A stretch of DNA of 64,000 bases from Escherichia phage phiWec188. The position numbers and the translations under genes were made by a program. The stretch lies in sequence record LC739537.1; one strand, given 5' to 3'. Below are positions 28,836-31,545 of this stretch, piece after piece; the stretch's first letter is position 1, and every line of letters begins with the position of its first letter. The notes under the pieces were generated by a model, which was given only the letters and a program-made list of their open reading frames with translations, did no database searches and had not been told where the DNA came from.

Positions 28836-28914
28836 TGGAGGCGGGAATCGGATTCGAACCGATGATCTCCAGCATATGAAACTGGCGAGGACGACCAAAC
28901 TCCTCTATCCCGCT
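28836..28914 (-). tRNA. tRNA-Met (anticodon CAT)
   Basis: Manual fold: acceptor stem, D-stem GAGG/CCTC, anticodon stem CCAGT/GCTGG with loop TTCATAT, T-arm ATCGG-TTCGAAT-CCGAT, encoded CCA. Position 1:72 is A-C mismatched. Confidence 0.65.
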
Positions 28915-28918
28915 ATTA

Positions 28919-28991
28919 GGTGTCCCGTGCTGGATTCGAACCAGCATCACAATAGTTGTGGATCTCTTATCCTGTAAGTCTAACGGGAAAC
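28919..28991 (-). tRNA. tRNA-like element / probable tRNA pseudogene
   Basis: Canonical T-arm GCTGG-TTCGAAT-CCAGC and 6/7-bp acceptor stem, but no 5-7-5 anticodon stem-loop can be drawn (CACAA-CTA-TTGTG has a 3-nt loop). Confidence 0.3.
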
Positions 28992-29065
28992 TGGTTGTTT
29001 CGACAAGAATCGAACTTGTATCTCACGATTATCAGTCGTGGGTTCTACCATTGAACTACGAAACA
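28992..29065 (-). tRNA. tRNA-Ile (anticodon GAT)
   Basis: Acceptor TGTTTCG/CGAAACA, D-stem GTTC/GAAC, anticodon stem CACGA/TCGTG with loop CTGATAA, T-arm ACAAG-TTCGATT-CTTGT, CCA encoded. Confidence 0.7.
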
Positions 29066-29071
29066 TTTAAT

Positions 29072-29146
29072 TGGTCAGCATGGAGAATTTCGAAATCTCG
29101 GCCCCCTCGTCCCAAACGAGGTGCTCTGCCACTGAGCTACACGCTG
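29072..29146 (-). tRNA. tRNA-Pro (anticodon TGG)
   Basis: D-arm GCTC-AGTGGCA-GAGC, anticodon stem CCTCG/CGAGG with loop TTTGGGA, CCA encoded; T-stem has one T-T mismatch. Confidence 0.6.
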
Positions 29147-29346
29147 TTATTAAAAAATCTCACGTCTTATACAAGCTAACCTTTTGCCTGACGCATGAAA
29201 TTTAAATACATTCTAAAGGTACACCGTAAAAGATTGTCGGGGCGATACTTCAAAAACATACCGATCCGTAAATCGATAATCAGACAAACTTCGACGGCTC
29301 CTCGTTTTTAACTTCACACTTAAGGTAGTGACTCACCTTTGTTATA

Positions 29347-29422
29347 TGGCTGGTCTGTCTGGATTTGAACCAAACCTACGACAGTCAAAGTGTCGTGTGC
29401 TACCGGACTACACTACAAACCA
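29347..29422 (-). tRNA. tRNA-Gln (anticodon TTG)
   Basis: Acceptor TGGTTTG/CAGACCA, anticodon stem CGACA/TGTCG with loop CTTTGAC, T-arm TTTGG-TTCAAAT-CCAGA, discriminator G, CCA. Confidence 0.7.
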
Positions 29423-29512
29423 TTTAATGAAGGGCAACCAGAAGAGGTGTGAGAGAAGGAGAAAACCATAAGTAAAAGAGAAAGTTTTCTGGCAACCCTT
29501 TATTAAATAATT

Positions 29513-29586
29513 TGGAGCGTTCTACGAGTTTCGAACTCGTGCCGCCGACTTGGAAGGACGGAATGCTACCGCTACACCAAGAACGC
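29513..29586 (-). tRNA. tRNA-Gly (anticodon TCC), one mismatch in anticodon stem
   Basis: Acceptor GCGTTCT/AGAACGC, anticodon loop CTTCCAA, T-arm ACGAG-TTCGAAA-CTCGT, discriminator T, CCA; anticodon stem CCGTC/GTCGG has a T-T pair. Confidence 0.55.
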
Positions 29587-30082
29587 CCTACATCTTTACT
29601 ATACTACATTTTACTATCAGTTGTCAATAGTTTTATTGGGTGGGACAGTGACGAGTATCCCATTGGGTGACTAACCCTACGTTCGGTTGTGATTAATCTC
29701 CTGGGTGTCGCTTGCAACACTGGAAAACTCTCACGTCGATGGGAGAATCCGCTTCTTCTTTACCCCATCCAACCCTACTCCGGTCAAGTTTCAGGTGACT
29801 CTTTTTGTGATCAACACAATACTAAGAACACTGTCTTTCGAGCAGACCTTGTGCACAGGATACGACGATCAATCACAGTGCTCTTAATGTTGTGTTGTGA
29901 ATATTAACCTCGGAACTCATTACCGCGCTTCGGCTCGACCTTATTACAGGTTAGTGAATGTCTTTCTTCCGCTTACATTCAATAAATTTGCTTTCTTCAC
30001 AACGATAAGAACACTTAACAGAAGATAGGTCTGATTGCCTCGGATGATTTCTCAGTAGCCTAAATGTTCTTACCTGTTATGT

Positions 30083-30158
30083 TGGTGCTCCAAGTAGGAC
30101 TCGAACCTACGACCTCATGCTTACAAGGCAAGTGCTCTACCAACTGAGCTATTGAAGC
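30083..30158 (-). tRNA. tRNA-Thr (anticodon TGT)
   Basis: D-arm GCTC-AGTTGGTA-GAGC, anticodon loop CTTGTAA, T-arm GTAGG-TTCGAGT-CCTAC, CCA; overall very close to enterobacterial tRNA-Thr as I recall it. Confidence 0.7.
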
Positions 30159-30277
30159 GTATTGCGCCCCTTCAGCCATGCTTGATGTTGACCAGAACAC
30201 AGTTAAACTGTGGGAGGAGGAACACCGCAGGGGGCTTCAGTTGGACGACTTACAGGGAGCGACCCTGTTTCTTTTCT

Positions 30278-30354
30278 GGGACTCGGCAGGATTCGATACC
30301 TGCAATTCCAGAAGCCTCTTGGCGACTGAGGGTTTACCTTAACTCTACAAGTCC
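30278..30354 (-). tRNA. tRNA-like element (atypical, no canonical anticodon arm, no encoded CCA)
   Basis: 7-bp acceptor stem GGACTTG/CGAGTCC and T-arm-like GCAGG-TATCGAAT-CCTGC (8-nt loop), but the central region does not fold into a 5-7-5 anticodon arm. Confidence 0.25.
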
Positions 30355-30510
30355 ATAATTCTTAAATACTTTGGAGCCTTACTGACAAACCGTTAGTTTG
30401 TAACATAGCGTATTTCCATTCTGGGGCACCGCCTGTGAATGTAATTCCAATACAAACTTTCTCAAGATCAAACCAATTATCAAATAACATAAGAACCTCC
30501 AGTTATAATT

Positions 30511-30594
30511 TGGTGTGAGATGATGGATTCGAACCACCGCGCCTTTCAGAACAGATTTACAGTCTGCTGCAATCGACCACTCTGCCAATCTCAC
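30511..30594 (-). tRNA. tRNA-Tyr (anticodon GTA)
   Basis: Perfect acceptor stem GTGAGAT/ATCTCAC, anticodon stem GCAGA/TCTGT with loop CTGTAAA, long variable arm, T-arm GGTGG-TTCGAAT-CCATC, CCA. Confidence 0.7.
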
Positions 30595-30719
30595 AAAATT
30601 ATTTTTAAAGTAGCCAGTATTCGCGGTACTGACTATGCGGTATCGGGGGATGGTGAGAGCCATCTGCCGAAAGTTTACTCTGTTAAAGTAAGAAACAACA
30701 AGCTACATTAAAAACAACT

Positions 30720-30805
30720 TGGCGGTAGATGTAGGACTCGAACCTACACGCCGTTTCCGACTACAGTTTAGCAAACTGTCGTGGCTACCATTTCACCAAT
30801 CTACC
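30720..30805 (-). tRNA. tRNA-Ser (anticodon GCT)
   Basis: Acceptor GGTAGAT/ATCTACC, anticodon stem ACAGT/ACTGT with loop TTGCTAA, long variable arm, T-arm GTAGG-TTCGAGT-CCTAC, discriminator G, CCA. Confidence 0.7.
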
Positions 30806-30811
30806 TAAATT

Positions 30812-30901
30812 TGGAGGAAGGTAATGGAGTCGAACCATCACCGTATCTCTACAATGGGCCAGGGTTCAAATCTGGTTGCGTACCACTACGCCCTACCTTC
30901 C
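30812..30901 (-). tRNA. tRNA-Ser (anticodon TGA)
   Basis: Acceptor GGAAGGT/ACCTTCC, anticodon loop TTTGAAC on stem CCAG/CTGG, long variable arm, T-arm GATGG-TTCGACT-CCATT, CCA. Confidence 0.6.
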
Positions 30902-31136
30902 ATACATTTAATCTAACATAAAACGATGTTGATTGTCAACACCTTTTAAAACATTTTATTATGAATGGTGACTCCACCAACCCCCGTTCTCCACGAACGG
31001 TACTCTTCGAGCAATCTACCCTTGCAATCAAACGTTGTACACCGTTAGCTTGCTCATGCATATTTGCCTCATTCTCTGCCAACCATGATCAGTGGTAGGG
31101 TTCAAATCACTTGAGCTAATTCATACTAAAATGTTC

Positions 31137-31211
31137 TGGTGTCTTTACAAGGAATCGAACCTTGACTAAGAGTTTAGAAGACTCCTGTGCTATCCATTAC
31201 ACCATAAAGAC
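31137..31211 (-). tRNA. tRNA-Arg (anticodon TCT)
   Basis: Acceptor GTCTTTA/TAAAGAC, D-arm GTGT-AATGGATA-GCAC, anticodon loop CTTCTAA, T-arm CAAGG-TTCGATT-CCTTG, CCA. Confidence 0.7.
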
Positions 31212-31213
31212 GT

Positions 31214-31288
31214 TGGTGGCCCTGACTGGTTTCGATCCAGTTGCCTATCGGTTATGAGCCGACTGCTCTCCCATTGAGCTACAGGGCC
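31214..31288 (-). tRNA. tRNA with CAT anticodon (Met or lysidine-type Ile2)
   Basis: Acceptor GGCCCTG/CAGGGCC, D-arm GCTC-AATGGGA-GAGC, anticodon loop CTCATAA, T-arm ACTGG-ATCGAAA-CCAGT, CCA; acceptor resembles Ile2-type tRNAs. Confidence 0.6.
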
Positions 31289-31545
31289 GTAAATGTGGTA
31301 ACAGAGACGTTGAAAGTAGTAGGAAGTAGCTACCATTCCTCGGACGTAAGCCCAACATTCAGCGTAAATGTTCTTGAGCCGAAGCTTTTCCATATGTTCT
31401 TTGGTAGCTAACCTCCGAACAAGTAGCCTCTAACATCTCAACGATGCAAATCCGTCTTAACAACAGTCAACGACCCTGTTACCACACTTGATAAAGCGTA
31501 TCTTAACAAAATAAGACACGCTTGTCAATACTTATTTCAAATATT

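What the first reader, a model, noticed from the sequence alone, without database searches (positions are those of the whole stretch)
28836..31288. Dense tRNA cluster with canonical tRNAs interleaved with tRNA-like elements lacking an anticodon arm
Eleven tRNAs fold canonically by hand (Met-CAT, Ile-GAT, Pro-TGG, Gln-TTG, Gly-TCC, Thr-TGT, Tyr-GTA, Ser-GCT, Ser-TGA, Arg-TCT and a second CAT tRNA that may be lysidine-type Ile2), all on the late-gene strand. At 28919-28991 and 30278-30354 there are elements with good acceptor stems and T-arms but no 5-7-5 anticodon stem-loop, and at 31087-31117 a D-loop-like AGTGGTAG motif directly abuts a T-loop-like GGGTTCAAATC motif. These may be decaying tRNA genes, intron-containing or structurally unusual tRNAs, or tRNA-derived regulatory/processing elements.
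Basis: seen in the sequence. Interest (0 to 1): 0.5.

Follow-up and report, generated by a model that had tools for sequence, protein, structure and literature searches.

The report
Anticodon-less tRNA mimics in phage tRNA cluster
Between the eleven ordinary tRNA genes of this E. coli phage sit two conserved genes for tRNA-shaped RNAs that have no anticodon loop, so they cannot read codons; one of them belongs to a large, apparently undescribed family of such RNAs in uncultivated phages, and their function is unknown.

Summary
The window is Escherichia phage phiWec190 (Phapecoctavirus). Two of the three odd elements are real. E1 (28921-28989) and E2 (30278-30354) have a 7-bp acceptor stem stacked on a 5-bp T stem and a capped hairpin in place of the anticodon loop. 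Neither is called by ARAGORN or passes Rfam. Both are as conserved as the true tRNAs (96% and 98.5% identity against 16-90% for spacers). E1 has homologues in four phage lineages, with nine base pairs changed on both sides. E2 has an 8-nt T loop (UAUCGAAU). It scores 43 bits against a model built only from uncultivated-virus sequences that share this frame around a hypervariable 13-194-nt core. They are therefore selected, non-decoding tRNA mimics, not decaying genes. The closest known analogue is T4 species 1 RNA, whose function is still unknown. E3 (31087-31117) is not tRNA-like. Its motifs lie on the untranscribed strand, there is no T stem, and it sits in the leader of a conserved small ORF. 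What the mimics do (decoy, cargo carrier or processing mark) is inferred, not shown.

The parts
28921..28989 (-). E1: a tRNA-shaped RNA gene without an anticodon loop. Acceptor stem 7 bp with a U1.C72 mismatch. Non-canonical D arm: G10-C and A11-U, then the hairpin CUUA-CAGGA-UAAG. A 5-bp hairpin with a CUA triloop stands where the anticodon arm should be. Variable region 2 nt. Canonical T arm GCUGG-UUCGAAU-CCAGC. Discriminator A, followed by CCU rather than CCA.
   Evidence: Rfam tRNA 21.3 bits, below the threshold of 29, with the D and anticodon arms skipped. Anatomy and homologue table. On 8 sequences the structure is 96.2% paired against 36-44% for slid controls, with 9 pairs changed on both sides. 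95.5% identity across 8 Phapecoctavirus genomes.
30278..30354 (-). E2: a tRNA-shaped RNA gene without an anticodon loop. Acceptor GGACUUG/CGAGUCC. U8-A9. A 3-bp D stem GAG/CUC with loop UUAAGGUAAACC. Central arm CAG(UC)GCC-AAGA-GGC(UU)CUG. T stem GCAGG/CCUGC with an 8-nt loop UAUCGAAU. Discriminator C. No encoded CCA.
   Evidence: Fold. 98.5% identity across 8 genomes and >=95% in 87 phage records. 43.2 bits, E=9.5e-10, against model R1, which was built from 40 uncultivated-virus sequences. No Rfam hit.
31087..31117 (-). E3: not a tRNA-like element. It is part of the leader between tRNA-Arg and a small ORF. On the transcribed strand it reads GAUUUGAACCCUACCACU. The adjoining hairpin at 31079-31099 (CCUACCA-CUGAUCA-UGGUUGG) overlaps the upstream in-frame start codon: TTG in the window, ATG in phAPEC8.
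   Evidence: No T stem, no model hit, z-scores +0.1 and +0.75. The hairpin is kept in phAPEC8 through a symmetric pair of indels. A 12-mer is shared with the Ser-TGA anticodon arm, giving 2 exact copies in the window where 0.36 matches with up to one mismatch are expected by chance.
30936..31082 (-). Small ORF (48 aa from TTG; 41 aa from the ATG preceded by GAGG). E3 lies in its leader.
   Evidence: ORF listed. The frame is open and aligned over residues 1-47 in 70 phage records, with 60-64% amino-acid identity in most of them.
30362..30490 (-). 42-aa ORF between tRNA-Tyr and E2. Its stop codon lies 7 nt before the 5' end of E2. It is replaced by an 86-nt tRNA-Asn in phAPEC8-type relatives.
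28836..31288 (-). The tRNA cluster as a whole: Met/Ile2-like(CAT), Arg, Ser(TGA), Ser(GCT), Tyr, [E2], Thr, Gly, Gln, Pro, Ile, [E1], Met(CAT). All eleven tRNAs encode CCA.
31500..31528 (-). Sigma-70-type promoter upstream of the cluster (TTGACA, 17 nt, TAAGAT, with TG before the second hexamer).
   Evidence: This is a consensus match only.
30910..30939 (-). Internal sigma-70-type promoter upstream of Ser-TGA (TTGACA, 18 nt, TAGATT, with TG before the second hexamer).
   Evidence: Conserved in relatives.
29598..29627 (-). Internal sigma-70-type promoter upstream of tRNA-Gly (TTGACA, 18 nt, TATAGT; 11 of 12 matches).

Best explanation
E1 and E2 are genes for small non-decoding RNAs that keep the shape of a tRNA but end the anticodon arm in a capped hairpin. 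The retained parts are a 7-bp acceptor stem stacked on a 5-bp T stem, a D-type arm and a four-way junction.

Most likely course of events:
- They are transcribed with the neighbouring tRNAs from the sigma-70-type promoters of the cluster.
- They are cut out by the host tRNA-processing enzymes: RNase P at the 5' end and exonucleolytic or RNase Z-type trimming at the 3' end.
- They accumulate as stable tRNA mimics that cannot read a codon and are not predicted to be aminoacylated.

Their action must therefore rest on anticodon-independent recognition of the tRNA body. I see two versions. They could act as competitive ligands or decoys for a host or phage factor that binds the acceptor/T-arm half or the elbow of tRNA. 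Alternatively, as the hypervariable core of the E2 family suggests, the tRNA frame could be a natural carrier that gives processing and stability to a variable RNA insert.

E3 is not part of this. It is the 5' leader of a small ORF.

Shown: the structures, their conservation and covariation, family membership and the lack of an anticodon loop. Inferred: transcription, processing, stability and mode of action.
For: Structure and selection:
- E1's cloverleaf is 96.2% paired on 8 distinct sequences from four phage lineages, against 36-44% for slid controls. Nine pairs carry changes on both sides, and 0 of 500 shuffles reach the observed value (table).
- The hairpin that replaces the anticodon arm is kept with entirely different sequences: CACAA/UUGUG, CACAACG/CGUUGUG and CCCAG/CUGGG. 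Its loops have 3, 4 or 9 nt, so no anticodon is conserved.
- Within Phapecoctavirus, E1 is 95.5% and E2 98.5% identical. True tRNAs range from 58 to 100% and spacers from 16 to 90%.

E2 family:
- The 19-nt T arm of E2 has 91 exact hits in IMG/VR.
- In a set chosen only by a D-arm motif plus the 8-nt T-loop motif, with no pairing required, acceptor cells are 90% paired against 41-42% when shifted, and T-stem cells 95% against 39-55%. All 12 pairs form in 22 of 33 elements against 0 of 33. There are 30 different acceptor sequences, and cores span 13-194 nt.
- The D stem covaries: GCG/CGC, GUG/CAC, GCC/GGC and GAG/CUC.
- A covariance model built without any Phapecoctavirus sequence finds E2 at 43.2 bits, E=9.5e-10. 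That is above every true tRNA in the window; the next hit is tRNA-Ile at 29.8 bits.
- Family members are mostly intergenic and co-oriented with flanking ORFs (60:9 upstream, 62:7 downstream).

Context:
- E1 abuts the 3' end of a canonical tRNA within a few nt in all four lineages.
- Promoters lie on the same strand.

Precedent:
- T4 species 1 RNA (rnaC) lies in the T4 tRNA cluster. It has an acceptor-like terminal stem, a canonical T arm and a core of about 100 nt. Together with rnaD it is described as an RNA of yet unknown function that is expressed late, which northern blots confirm (PMC9697503).
Against: - There is no expression, end-mapping or stability data for E1 or E2.
- The eleven tRNAs all encode CCA, whereas E1 has CCU and E2 has none. 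A free CCA end may therefore not matter, or the RNAs may not be matured like tRNAs.
- E1 has a 1:72 mismatch in Phapecoctavirus.
- No conserved protein partner lies next to family members: at most 3 loci share a neighbour.
- The cores show no excess antisense match to flanking sequence (9.45 against 9.19 nt), so nothing points to a target.
- The T arm used to collect many family members was E2's own, which inflates the apparent uniformity of that arm and E2's model score.
- The 3-bp D stem of E2 carries an A.C mismatch in most relatives.
Confidence: 0.6

Rival explanations
1. Cis-acting processing marks ('tRNA punctuation'). E1 and E2 have no function as free RNAs. They exist so that RNase P and 3' nucleases cut the polycistronic transcript at defined places. 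This would release tRNA-Ile and tRNA-Met on either side of E1 and define the 3' end of the 42-aa ORF mRNA (or of tRNA-Asn in relatives) in front of E2.
For: E1 fills a tRNA-sized slot with gaps of 2 and 6 nt between two tRNAs. E2 starts 7 nt after the stop codon of the ORF at 30362-30490. Only the acceptor and T-arm half, which is what RNase P needs, is canonical. Known precedents for this mechanism (from my own knowledge) are mascRNA at the MALAT1 3' end and the t-elements of plant mitochondria.
Against: A mere cleavage signal does not need a conserved D arm and central hairpin, yet these are kept and covary across four phage lineages. Most E2-family members lie far from tRNAs (67 of 96 have none in the locus), sit about 300 nt (median) from the nearest ORFs, and carry structured cores of up to about 200 nt.
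Confidence: 0.2
2. Decaying tRNA genes. E1 and E2 are pseudogenes that lost their anticodon loops by small deletions and persist only because too little time has passed.
For: In phiEB49, ARAGORN calls the E1 homologue a tRNA-Val(AAC) with a 7-nt loop. The Phapecoctavirus copies have lost the CCA and have a 1:72 mismatch. The phAPEC8 record already flags the neighbouring Met as 'Pseudo'.
Against: E1 and E2 are as conserved as the working tRNAs, while the Thr, Pro and Ser-TGA alleles and whole spacers have been exchanged around them. None of the substitutions seen in E1 within the genus breaks a pair. Compensatory changes occur between lineages. E2 is >=95% identical in all 87 records and belongs to a family with strong covariation. 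In phiEB49 itself the 'anticodon loop' can close to a 6-bp stem with a triloop, and the D arm is non-canonical there too.
Confidence: 0.07
3. Structurally unusual but decoding tRNAs, for example read through a non-standard loop, after editing, or as frameshift or suppressor tRNAs.
For: Irregular tRNAs, including 8/4 forms, occur in phages (PMC5389517). The SonariX homologue of E1 has a 9-nt loop.
Against: The loops have 3-4 nt in Phapecoctavirus and Vequintavirinae and differ in sequence between lineages, so no anticodon is conserved. E2 has an AAGA tetraloop. Neither carries the anticodon-independent identity marks of the E. coli synthetases, namely G3:U70, G-1:C73 or a long variable arm (sequence read against established identity rules).
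Confidence: 0.03
4. DNA-level elements, for example recombination or homing sites that drive the exchange of tRNA cassettes in this mosaic cluster.
For: The cluster is mosaic: Thr, Pro, Ser-TGA and two spacers are swapped between close relatives. T4 has a homing endonuclease gene inside its tRNA cluster.
Against: Compensatory base-pair changes and strand-specific co-orientation with neighbouring genes point to selection on an RNA. No endonuclease gene lies in this cluster.
Confidence: 0.03

Closest known systems
Bacteriophage T4 species 1 RNA (rnaC), with species 2 RNA (rnaD)
   Same: It is encoded inside the phage tRNA cluster on the tRNA strand. Its 5' and 3' ends form an acceptor-like stem that stacks on a T arm (CCGGG-UUCGAAU-CCCGG). 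A non-tRNA core replaces the D and anticodon arms. It accumulates as a small stable RNA and its function is still unknown (PMC9697503).
   Different: There is no sequence similarity. Model R1 does not hit rnaC. rnaC has a 7-nt T loop, two U.U mismatches in the terminal stem, no D-type arm and a ~100-nt core. E1 and E2 are tRNA-sized cloverleaves.
Irregular and allo-tRNA-like sequences, including (8/4) tRNAs of phages (Mukai et al. 2017, PMC5389517; Krahn et al. 2020, PMC7609411)
   Same: These are non-canonical tRNA-shaped genes found in polycistrons with ordinary tRNAs, some in phages, with long D stems and small D loops like E1. Some were proposed to be regulatory non-coding RNAs rather than adaptors.
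   Different: They keep a 7-nt anticodon loop and are defined by 8/4 or 9/3 acceptor/T stacks. E1 and E2 are 7/5 and have no anticodon loop. The neighbouring Ser-TGA gene, not E1 or E2, is the one that looks like an 8/4-type tRNA.
Bacterial Y RNA-like YrlA (Rfam RF02553; Chen et al. 2014, PMC4201824)
   Same: A non-coding RNA, also found in phages, that mimics the acceptor, T and D arms of tRNA without decoding.
   Different: From my own knowledge, the topology is permuted in YrlA: the free ends form the Ro60-binding stem in the position of the anticodon stem, and the 'acceptor' is closed. In E1 and E2 the free ends form the acceptor stem. No Rfam YrlA hit falls on either element.
tRNA-like processing signals (mascRNA at the MALAT1 3' end, plant mitochondrial t-elements) and the engineered 'tRNA scaffold' for RNA expression
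   Same: They show that a tRNA frame with an altered or replaced anticodon arm is enough for RNase P cleavage, 3' processing and stability. This is the logic proposed here.
   Different: They are eukaryotic, organellar or artificial. The resemblance is functional and drawn from my own knowledge. The Rfam mascRNA model hit only the true tRNA-Arg, weakly at 20 bits.
Catalogue of candidate structured RNAs in viruses (Fremin et al. 2023, PMC10690425)
   Same: It reports that IMG/VR holds many putative tRNAs and tRNA-like structures that ARAGORN calls only sometimes. The E2 family may be among its 8,495 unnamed DNA-virus candidates.
   Different: No family with an 8-nt UAUCGAAU T loop and a variable core is described in the text I read. 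I could not check its supplementary models.

Membership tests
Canonical tRNA (Rfam RF00005) | Score at or above the Rfam gathering threshold (29 bits), or a call by ARAGORN | tested here: not met
   E1 scores 21.3 bits. E2 gives no hit even in a 101-nt search. ARAGORN calls neither.
Canonical tRNA (Rfam RF00005) | Anticodon arm: a 5-bp stem closed by a 7-nt loop with U33 | tested here: not met
   E1 has 5 bp plus a CUA triloop. E2 has 3+3 bp with a 2x2 internal loop and an AAGA tetraloop.
Canonical tRNA (Rfam RF00005) | 7-bp acceptor stem directly stacked on a 5-bp T stem | tested here: met
   True of both elements. In E1 pair 1:72 is a U.C mismatch.
Canonical tRNA (Rfam RF00005) | 7-nt T loop (UUCRANY) and a 4-bp D stem at positions 10-13/22-25 | tested here: not met
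   E1 has a canonical T loop, but its D arm is 2 bp, a 3-nt bulge and a 4-bp hairpin. E2 has an 8-nt T loop and a 3-bp D stem.
E2-type tRNA-framed RNA family of uncultivated phages (defined here) | 5-bp T stem closed by the 8-nt loop UAUCRAAY, preceded by U and followed at once by the 3' acceptor strand | tested here: met
   E2 reads U-GCAGG-UAUCGAAU-CCUGC-CGAGUCC. This is the commonest T arm in the set collected by the D-arm motif alone (13 of 33).
E2-type tRNA-framed RNA family of uncultivated phages (defined here) | U8, R9, then a 3-bp D stem at positions 10-12 closing a loop of type (G)AAG.UA.A | tested here: met
   E2 reads U-A-GAG-UUAAGGUAAACC-CUC. The same GAG/CUC stem occurs in L017 and a near-identical loop in L060. 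The middle pair is A.C in most Phapecoctavirus genomes.
E2-type tRNA-framed RNA family of uncultivated phages (defined here) | Significant full-length score against a covariance model built without E2 or its close relatives | tested here: met
   43.2 bits, E=9.5e-10, over model positions 1-71. The best true tRNA in the window scores 29.8 bits. Caveat: many training sequences were retrieved with E2's own T arm.
T4 species 1 RNA (rnaC) | Sequence or profile homology to rnaC | tested here: not met
   Model R1 finds only T4 tRNA-Ser (19.5 bits) in the T4 tRNA region. BLAST of E1 and E2 against phages finds no T4-like record.
T4 species 1 RNA (rnaC) | Accumulates as a discrete stable small RNA processed from the tRNA precursor | not testable with these tools
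   No transcript data are available for Phapecoctavirus.
tmRNA | tRNA-like domain with G3:U70, joined to a tag reading frame; a call by ARAGORN or Rfam | tested here: not met
   No tmRNA call. Pair 3:70 is C-G in E1 and A-U in E2. Neither element has room for a tag frame.
tRNA pseudogene | Neutral decay: divergence like the spacers, with substitutions hitting stems and loops alike | tested here: not met
   Identity is 95.5% and 98.5%, against 16-90% for spacers. No pair-breaking substitution is seen in E1 within the genus, and changes between lineages are compensatory.

The most novel reading that the evidence does not exclude
E2 is the first representative in cultured phages of a widespread, so far unnamed class of phage RNAs that use a modified tRNA frame as a natural scaffold around a hypervariable structured core. 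The frame has a 7/5 acceptor/T stack, a class-II-like D arm and a self-contained 8-nt T loop. E1 is a second, independent class. Both would work by hijacking anticodon-independent tRNA recognition, for example as decoys that absorb host tRNA-directed defence toxins or nucleases, or as vehicles that deliver variable RNA cargos through the tRNA maturation pathway.
Probability: 0.2. Interest if true: 0.8.

Novelty: new variant of a known kind. Interest (0 to 1): 0.6.

Why it matters
- Phage tRNA clusters are usually read only as codon-usage or anti-defence spare parts. Here two slots in such a cluster are held by conserved RNAs that cannot decode.
- One of them links a cultivable E. coli phage genus (Phapecoctavirus: phAPEC8, phiWec190 and more than 80 sequenced isolates) to a large family seen so far only in uncultivated viral contigs. 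That family could therefore be studied by genetics and biochemistry.
- It also gives fresh comparative material for the 50-year-old question of what the T4 species 1 and 2 RNAs do.
- In practice, none of the 77 and 87 GenBank records carries these genes as RNA features, and standard tRNA finders and Rfam miss them.

Tried and rejected
- Rfam on the window, on the two elements alone and on 22 family loci: no family covers E1, E2 or the IMG/VR relatives.
- Host mimicry: E2 has no match in 5,426 complete E. coli genomes, and E1 matches only T-arm fragments.
- A conserved protein partner next to E2-family members: none. The largest neighbour cluster spans 3 loci.
- Association of the family with tRNA arrays: weak. 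67 of 96 elements have no tRNA in the locus.
- Antisense targets of the cores in flanking sequence: no excess over shuffled cores.
- A D-loop/T-loop four-base kissing idea (GAUA with UAUC): dropped, because the same D arm also occurs with a different terminal hairpin (a 7-bp stem with loop UGARAGU).
- An 8/4 or 9/3 reading of E1 and E2: does not fit. Position 8 cannot pair, and the 9-bp option for E1 exists only in the window's lineage.
- A wider metagenome and genome scan for E1 with a D-hairpin plus T-loop pattern: apart from known relatives it mostly returned ordinary or CPR-type tRNAs (His, Asp and others) that share the D-arm letters by chance.
- Literature searches for a described phage family of this kind: nothing specific found.
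- The T4 genome review could not be read.


Full report
**Source and check of the observation**

The window is Escherichia phage phiWec190 (LC739539.1, Phapecoctavirus, Stephanstirmvirinae), matched at 100% identity over the region. Ten of them pass the Rfam tRNA gathering score. Ser-TGA reaches only 32 bits against the tRNA-Sec model.

The cluster lies between an early/metabolic block on the other strand and the terminase and structural genes on the same strand. It contains three strong sigma-70-type promoter matches on the tRNA strand, at 31528-31500, 30939-30910 and 29627-29598. All eleven tRNAs encode their CCA end.

**E1 (28921-28989, minus strand)**

The Rfam tRNA model aligns E1's acceptor stem and T arm but skips the D and anticodon arms. 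It scores 21.3 bits, below the threshold of 29.

Anatomy of E1:
- Acceptor stem UUCCCGU/ACGGGAC, with a U1.C72 mismatch.
- U8 and A9.
- Two outer D pairs (G10-C, A11-U) enclosing the hairpin CUUA-CAGGA-UAAG and a 3-nt bulge.
- A 5-bp hairpin CACAA-CUA-UUGUG where the anticodon arm should be.
- A 2-nt variable region.
- A canonical T arm.
- Discriminator A, followed by CCU.

BLAST finds E1 in 77 phage records. None annotates it as an RNA. More distant homologues occur in:
- a group of Vequintavirinae (A7_1, LTH01);
- the Drexlerviridae phage phiEB49, where ARAGORN calls it 'tRNA-Val(AAC)';
- Enterobacter phage SonariX.

In every lineage E1 starts within a few nucleotides of the 3' end of a canonical tRNA: Ile, Tyr, Arg or Gln.

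On eight distinct sequences the five-helix structure is 96.2% paired, against 36-44% when the partner columns are slid. Nine pairs carry changes on both sides, against 0-2 in the controls, and none of 500 shuffles reaches the observed values.

The central hairpin is kept with unrelated sequences. Its loops have 3, 4 or 9 nt. In phiEB49 the supposed 7-nt anticodon loop can itself close to a triloop. No anticodon is conserved, so the family does not look like a decoding tRNA in any member.

Within Phapecoctavirus the few variable positions fall in loops, the bulge, the mismatched position 72 and the tail. One A-U pair becomes G.U.

**E2 (30278-30354, minus strand)**

Anatomy of E2:
- Acceptor stem GGACUUG/CGAGUCC.
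- U8 and A9.
- A 3-bp D stem GAG/CUC around the loop UUAAGGUAAACC.
- A central arm CAG(UC)GCC-AAGA-GGC(UU)CUG.
- A T stem GCAGG/CCUGC closed by an 8-nt loop UAUCGAAU.
- Discriminator C and no encoded CCA.

No Rfam model matches it, even in a 101-nt search. It is at least 95% identical in all 87 phage records that hold it and is never annotated as an RNA. It has no match in 5,426 E. coli genomes.

In an alignment of eight Phapecoctavirus clusters E2 is 98.5% identical and E1 95.5%. That is the range of the best-kept tRNAs (Arg 100%, Ser-GCT 99.5%, Ile 98.8%). Spacers range from 16 to 90%, and the Thr, Pro and Ser-TGA genes themselves have been replaced (58-62%).

**The wider E2 family**

E2's 19-nt T arm has 91 exact matches in IMG/VR viral contigs. 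Nearly all have the same layout:
- a 7-nt strand right after the T arm that pairs with a 7-mer 47-244 nt upstream;
- that 7-mer is followed by U, R and a class-II-like D arm, most often GGCGGAAGAUAGACGC;
- a core of very variable length and sequence lies in between.

To avoid circularity I collected a second set with the D-arm 18-mer alone. I then asked only for the 8-nt T-loop motif downstream, with no pairing required. Results for those 33 elements:

| Measure | In register | Shifted by 1-3 nt |
|---|---|---|
| Acceptor cells paired | 90% | 41-42% |
| T-stem cells paired | 95% | 39-55% |
| Elements with all 12 pairs | 22 of 33 | 0 of 33 |

The same set holds 30 different acceptor sequences, shows all four Watson-Crick pair types at acceptor positions 2-6, and has T stems that covary (GCAGG, GUAAG, GUGGG, CCAAG, GCUGG, ACCAG). 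Cores span 13-194 nt.

Further properties of the family:
- The 3-bp D stem is present at positions 10-12 in 57 of 75 elements, against 12-36 at other offsets. It covaries as GCG/CGC, GUG/CAC, GCC/GGC and GAG/CUC, the last being E2's version.
- Related contigs keep hairpins inside the core through compensatory changes, for example GAGG/CCUC in L016 and GUGG/CCAC in L012.
- ARAGORN and Rfam do not recognise these elements.
- A covariance model built from 40 of them, none from Phapecoctavirus, finds E2 in the 64-kb window at 43.2 bits (E=9.5e-10) over its full length. The only other significant hit is tRNA-Ile at 29.8 bits.
- The same model finds no E2-like element in the Vequintavirinae, phiEB49, SonariX or T4 loci.
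- Family members are mostly intergenic and co-oriented with both neighbouring ORFs (60:9 upstream, 62:7 downstream).
- They have no recurrent protein neighbour.
- They are usually not next to tRNAs.
- About half of the D-arm hits end in a different terminal hairpin, a 7-bp stem with loop UGARAGU. This points to a still wider group.

**E3 (31087-31117)**

The motifs AGTGGTAG and GGGTTCAAATC are in the sequence, but on the plus strand, antisense to the whole cluster. There is no stem around the 'T loop', no covariance-model hit and no folding signal.

On the transcribed strand the stretch lies between tRNA-Arg and a small ORF at 30936-31082. That ORF's frame is open and alignable over residues 1-47 in 70 phage records, with 60-64% amino-acid identity in most of them.

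Part of E3 forms a hairpin with a 7-nt loop (31079-31099) that overlaps the upstream in-frame start codon (TTG in the window, ATG in phAPEC8). The hairpin is kept in phAPEC8 through a symmetric pair of single-base indels.

The string GAUUUGAACCCU is shared with the anticodon arm of the Ser-TGA gene 236 nt downstream. This may be a recombination scar in a mosaic cluster, or it may be chance. E3 should be dropped from the finding.

**How E1 and E2 most likely work**

Shown:
- Both elements are under selection for a tRNA-like fold that lacks an anticodon loop.
- Both sit on the tRNA strand downstream of promoters.
- E1 always directly follows a tRNA.

Inferred:
- They are co-transcribed with the tRNAs.
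- They are released by RNase P and 3' trimming.
- They persist as stable RNAs.

They cannot decode. They also lack the anticodon-independent identity marks of E. coli synthetases (G3:U70, G-1:C73, a long variable arm), so they are probably uncharged. This follows from established identity rules and was not tested here.

Their action must use the parts of tRNA they keep. The hypervariable but structured cores of the E2 family argue that the tRNA frame is either a carrier for a cargo or the functional mimic itself. I rate 'functional stable tRNA mimic' at about 0.6. Within that I cannot separate the decoy and carrier versions. The rivals are a purely cis-acting processing mark (0.2), pseudogenes (0.07), odd decoding tRNAs (0.03) and DNA-level sites (0.03).

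**Comparison with what is known**

The closest analogue is T4 species 1 RNA (rnaC). It lies in the T4 tRNA cluster and has an acceptor-like terminal stem, a canonical T arm and a ~100-nt core. A 2022 study still describes RNAC and RNAD as RNAs of unknown function (PMC9697503). There is no sequence or profile homology to it.

Other comparisons:
- Allo-tRNAs and (8/4) phage tRNAs keep an anticodon loop (PMC5389517).
- YrlA has a permuted topology.
- tmRNA features are absent.
- A 2023 catalogue reports many unnamed tRNA-like candidates in IMG/VR and may contain this family, but its text does not describe it (PMC10690425).

I therefore file E1 and E2 as new variants of a known but uncharacterised kind: phage-encoded tRNA-like stable RNAs.

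**Limits**

- All evidence is computational.
- The IMG/VR sets were gathered with exact-match seeds, one of them E2's own T arm.
- E-values from the short-calibrated model are rough.
- My literature search covers only open-access text.

Noticed in passing
window 29423-29512 (minus strand), between tRNA-Gln and tRNA-Gly: The 90-nt spacer is 98.9% identical across eight Phapecoctavirus genomes, as conserved as the tRNAs. It folds into a long-range stem of about 19 pairs closing a C/U-rich loop of about 45 nt (z = -3.9; 0 of 200 shuffles fold as well). It is a candidate small RNA or processing element.
   Followed up: partly
window 29770-29891 (minus strand), inside the 496-nt Gly-Thr spacer: A 122-nt block that is 98.4% conserved, while the rest of the spacer is variable or absent in relatives. 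It contains a long, nearly perfect hairpin (ACACAACAUUAAGAGCACUGU...ACAGUGUUCUUAGUAUUGUGU). It sits downstream of the promoter at 29627 only in the antisense sense, so its transcription is unclear.
   Followed up: partly
window 30812-30901 (tRNA-Ser TGA): This tRNA fails the Rfam tRNA threshold and hits tRNA-Sec at 32 bits. It can form an 8-bp acceptor stem and has a 5-bp D stem with a 4-nt loop, like the (8/4) phage tRNA-Ser class of Mukai et al. In phAPEC8 and phiWec179 the same slot holds a different Ser(UGA)-like sequence that ARAGORN does not call at all.
   Followed up: partly
window 30083-30158, 29072-29146, 30159-30277, 29147-29346: The cluster is mosaic. The Thr and Pro genes are only about 62% identical to those of close relatives, while their neighbours are about 99% identical. 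Two spacers are nearly unique to phiWec190 and PsgM04F. This indicates cassette-like exchange of tRNA alleles around fixed elements that include E1 and E2.
   Followed up: partly
L002 (phAPEC8) 2718-2803; window 30362-30490: Most relatives carry an 86-nt 'tRNA-Asn(GTT)' with a long extra arm where the window has a 42-aa ORF. An Asn anticodon on a class-II-type body is unusual. It could be a serine-accepting missense tRNA or another non-standard element.
   Followed up: no
window 30936-31082 (minus strand): A small ORF (41-48 aa; conserved C-terminal half CSKSTVRGERGLVESPF, variable N-terminal half). It is open in 70 phage records and unannotated in nearly all of them. Two hairpins lie within its conserved 3' part, just upstream of the Ser-TGA promoter.
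   Followed up: partly
window 28836-28914 (tRNA-Met CAT): This 79-nt tRNA has an A1.C72 mismatch and a 5-bp D stem with a 9-nt loop. The phAPEC8 record labels it 'tRNA-Pseudo-CAT'. The 1:72 mismatch is reminiscent of initiator tRNA and is shared with the adjacent E1.
   Followed up: no
window 31214-31288 (second CAT tRNA): Its best full-length matches in E. coli genomes (79-80% identity, in 36 genomes) are genes annotated tRNA-Ile.
   Followed up: yes
L036 (IMGVR_UViG_3300020049_008230) 1048-2033: One viral contig packs four RNA features within 1 kb: a weak YrlA-like hit, a tRNA, a full tmRNA (119 bits) and an E2-family element. This suggests phage 'RNA islands' of tRNA-related mimics.
   Followed up: no
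loci L101-L166 (IMG/VR): About half of the elements that start with the D arm GUGGCGGAAGAUAGACGC end in a 7-bp stem with loop UGARAGU, not in the 8-nt-loop T arm. Several cores also contain an extra T-arm-like hairpin. This is a related class that I did not analyse.
   Followed up: partly
window 3' flanks of Tyr (30505-30510) and Gly (29507-29512), and 5' flank of E2 (30355-30360): The hexamer AAUUAU recurs at processing junctions: after tRNA-Tyr, after tRNA-Gly and immediately before E2. Similar A/U-rich linkers (AAUUUA, AUUAAA) flank other tRNAs. They may be RNase E or RNase P context signals.
   Followed up: no
L174/L175, L181/L183/L184 (metagenome contigs and a Minisyncoccia MAG): The D-hairpin pattern used for E1 also retrieved tRNA-sized genes with 6-7-bp D stems and non-standard central loops. 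One of them lies in a CPR bacterium chromosome and is unrelated to E1.
   Followed up: no
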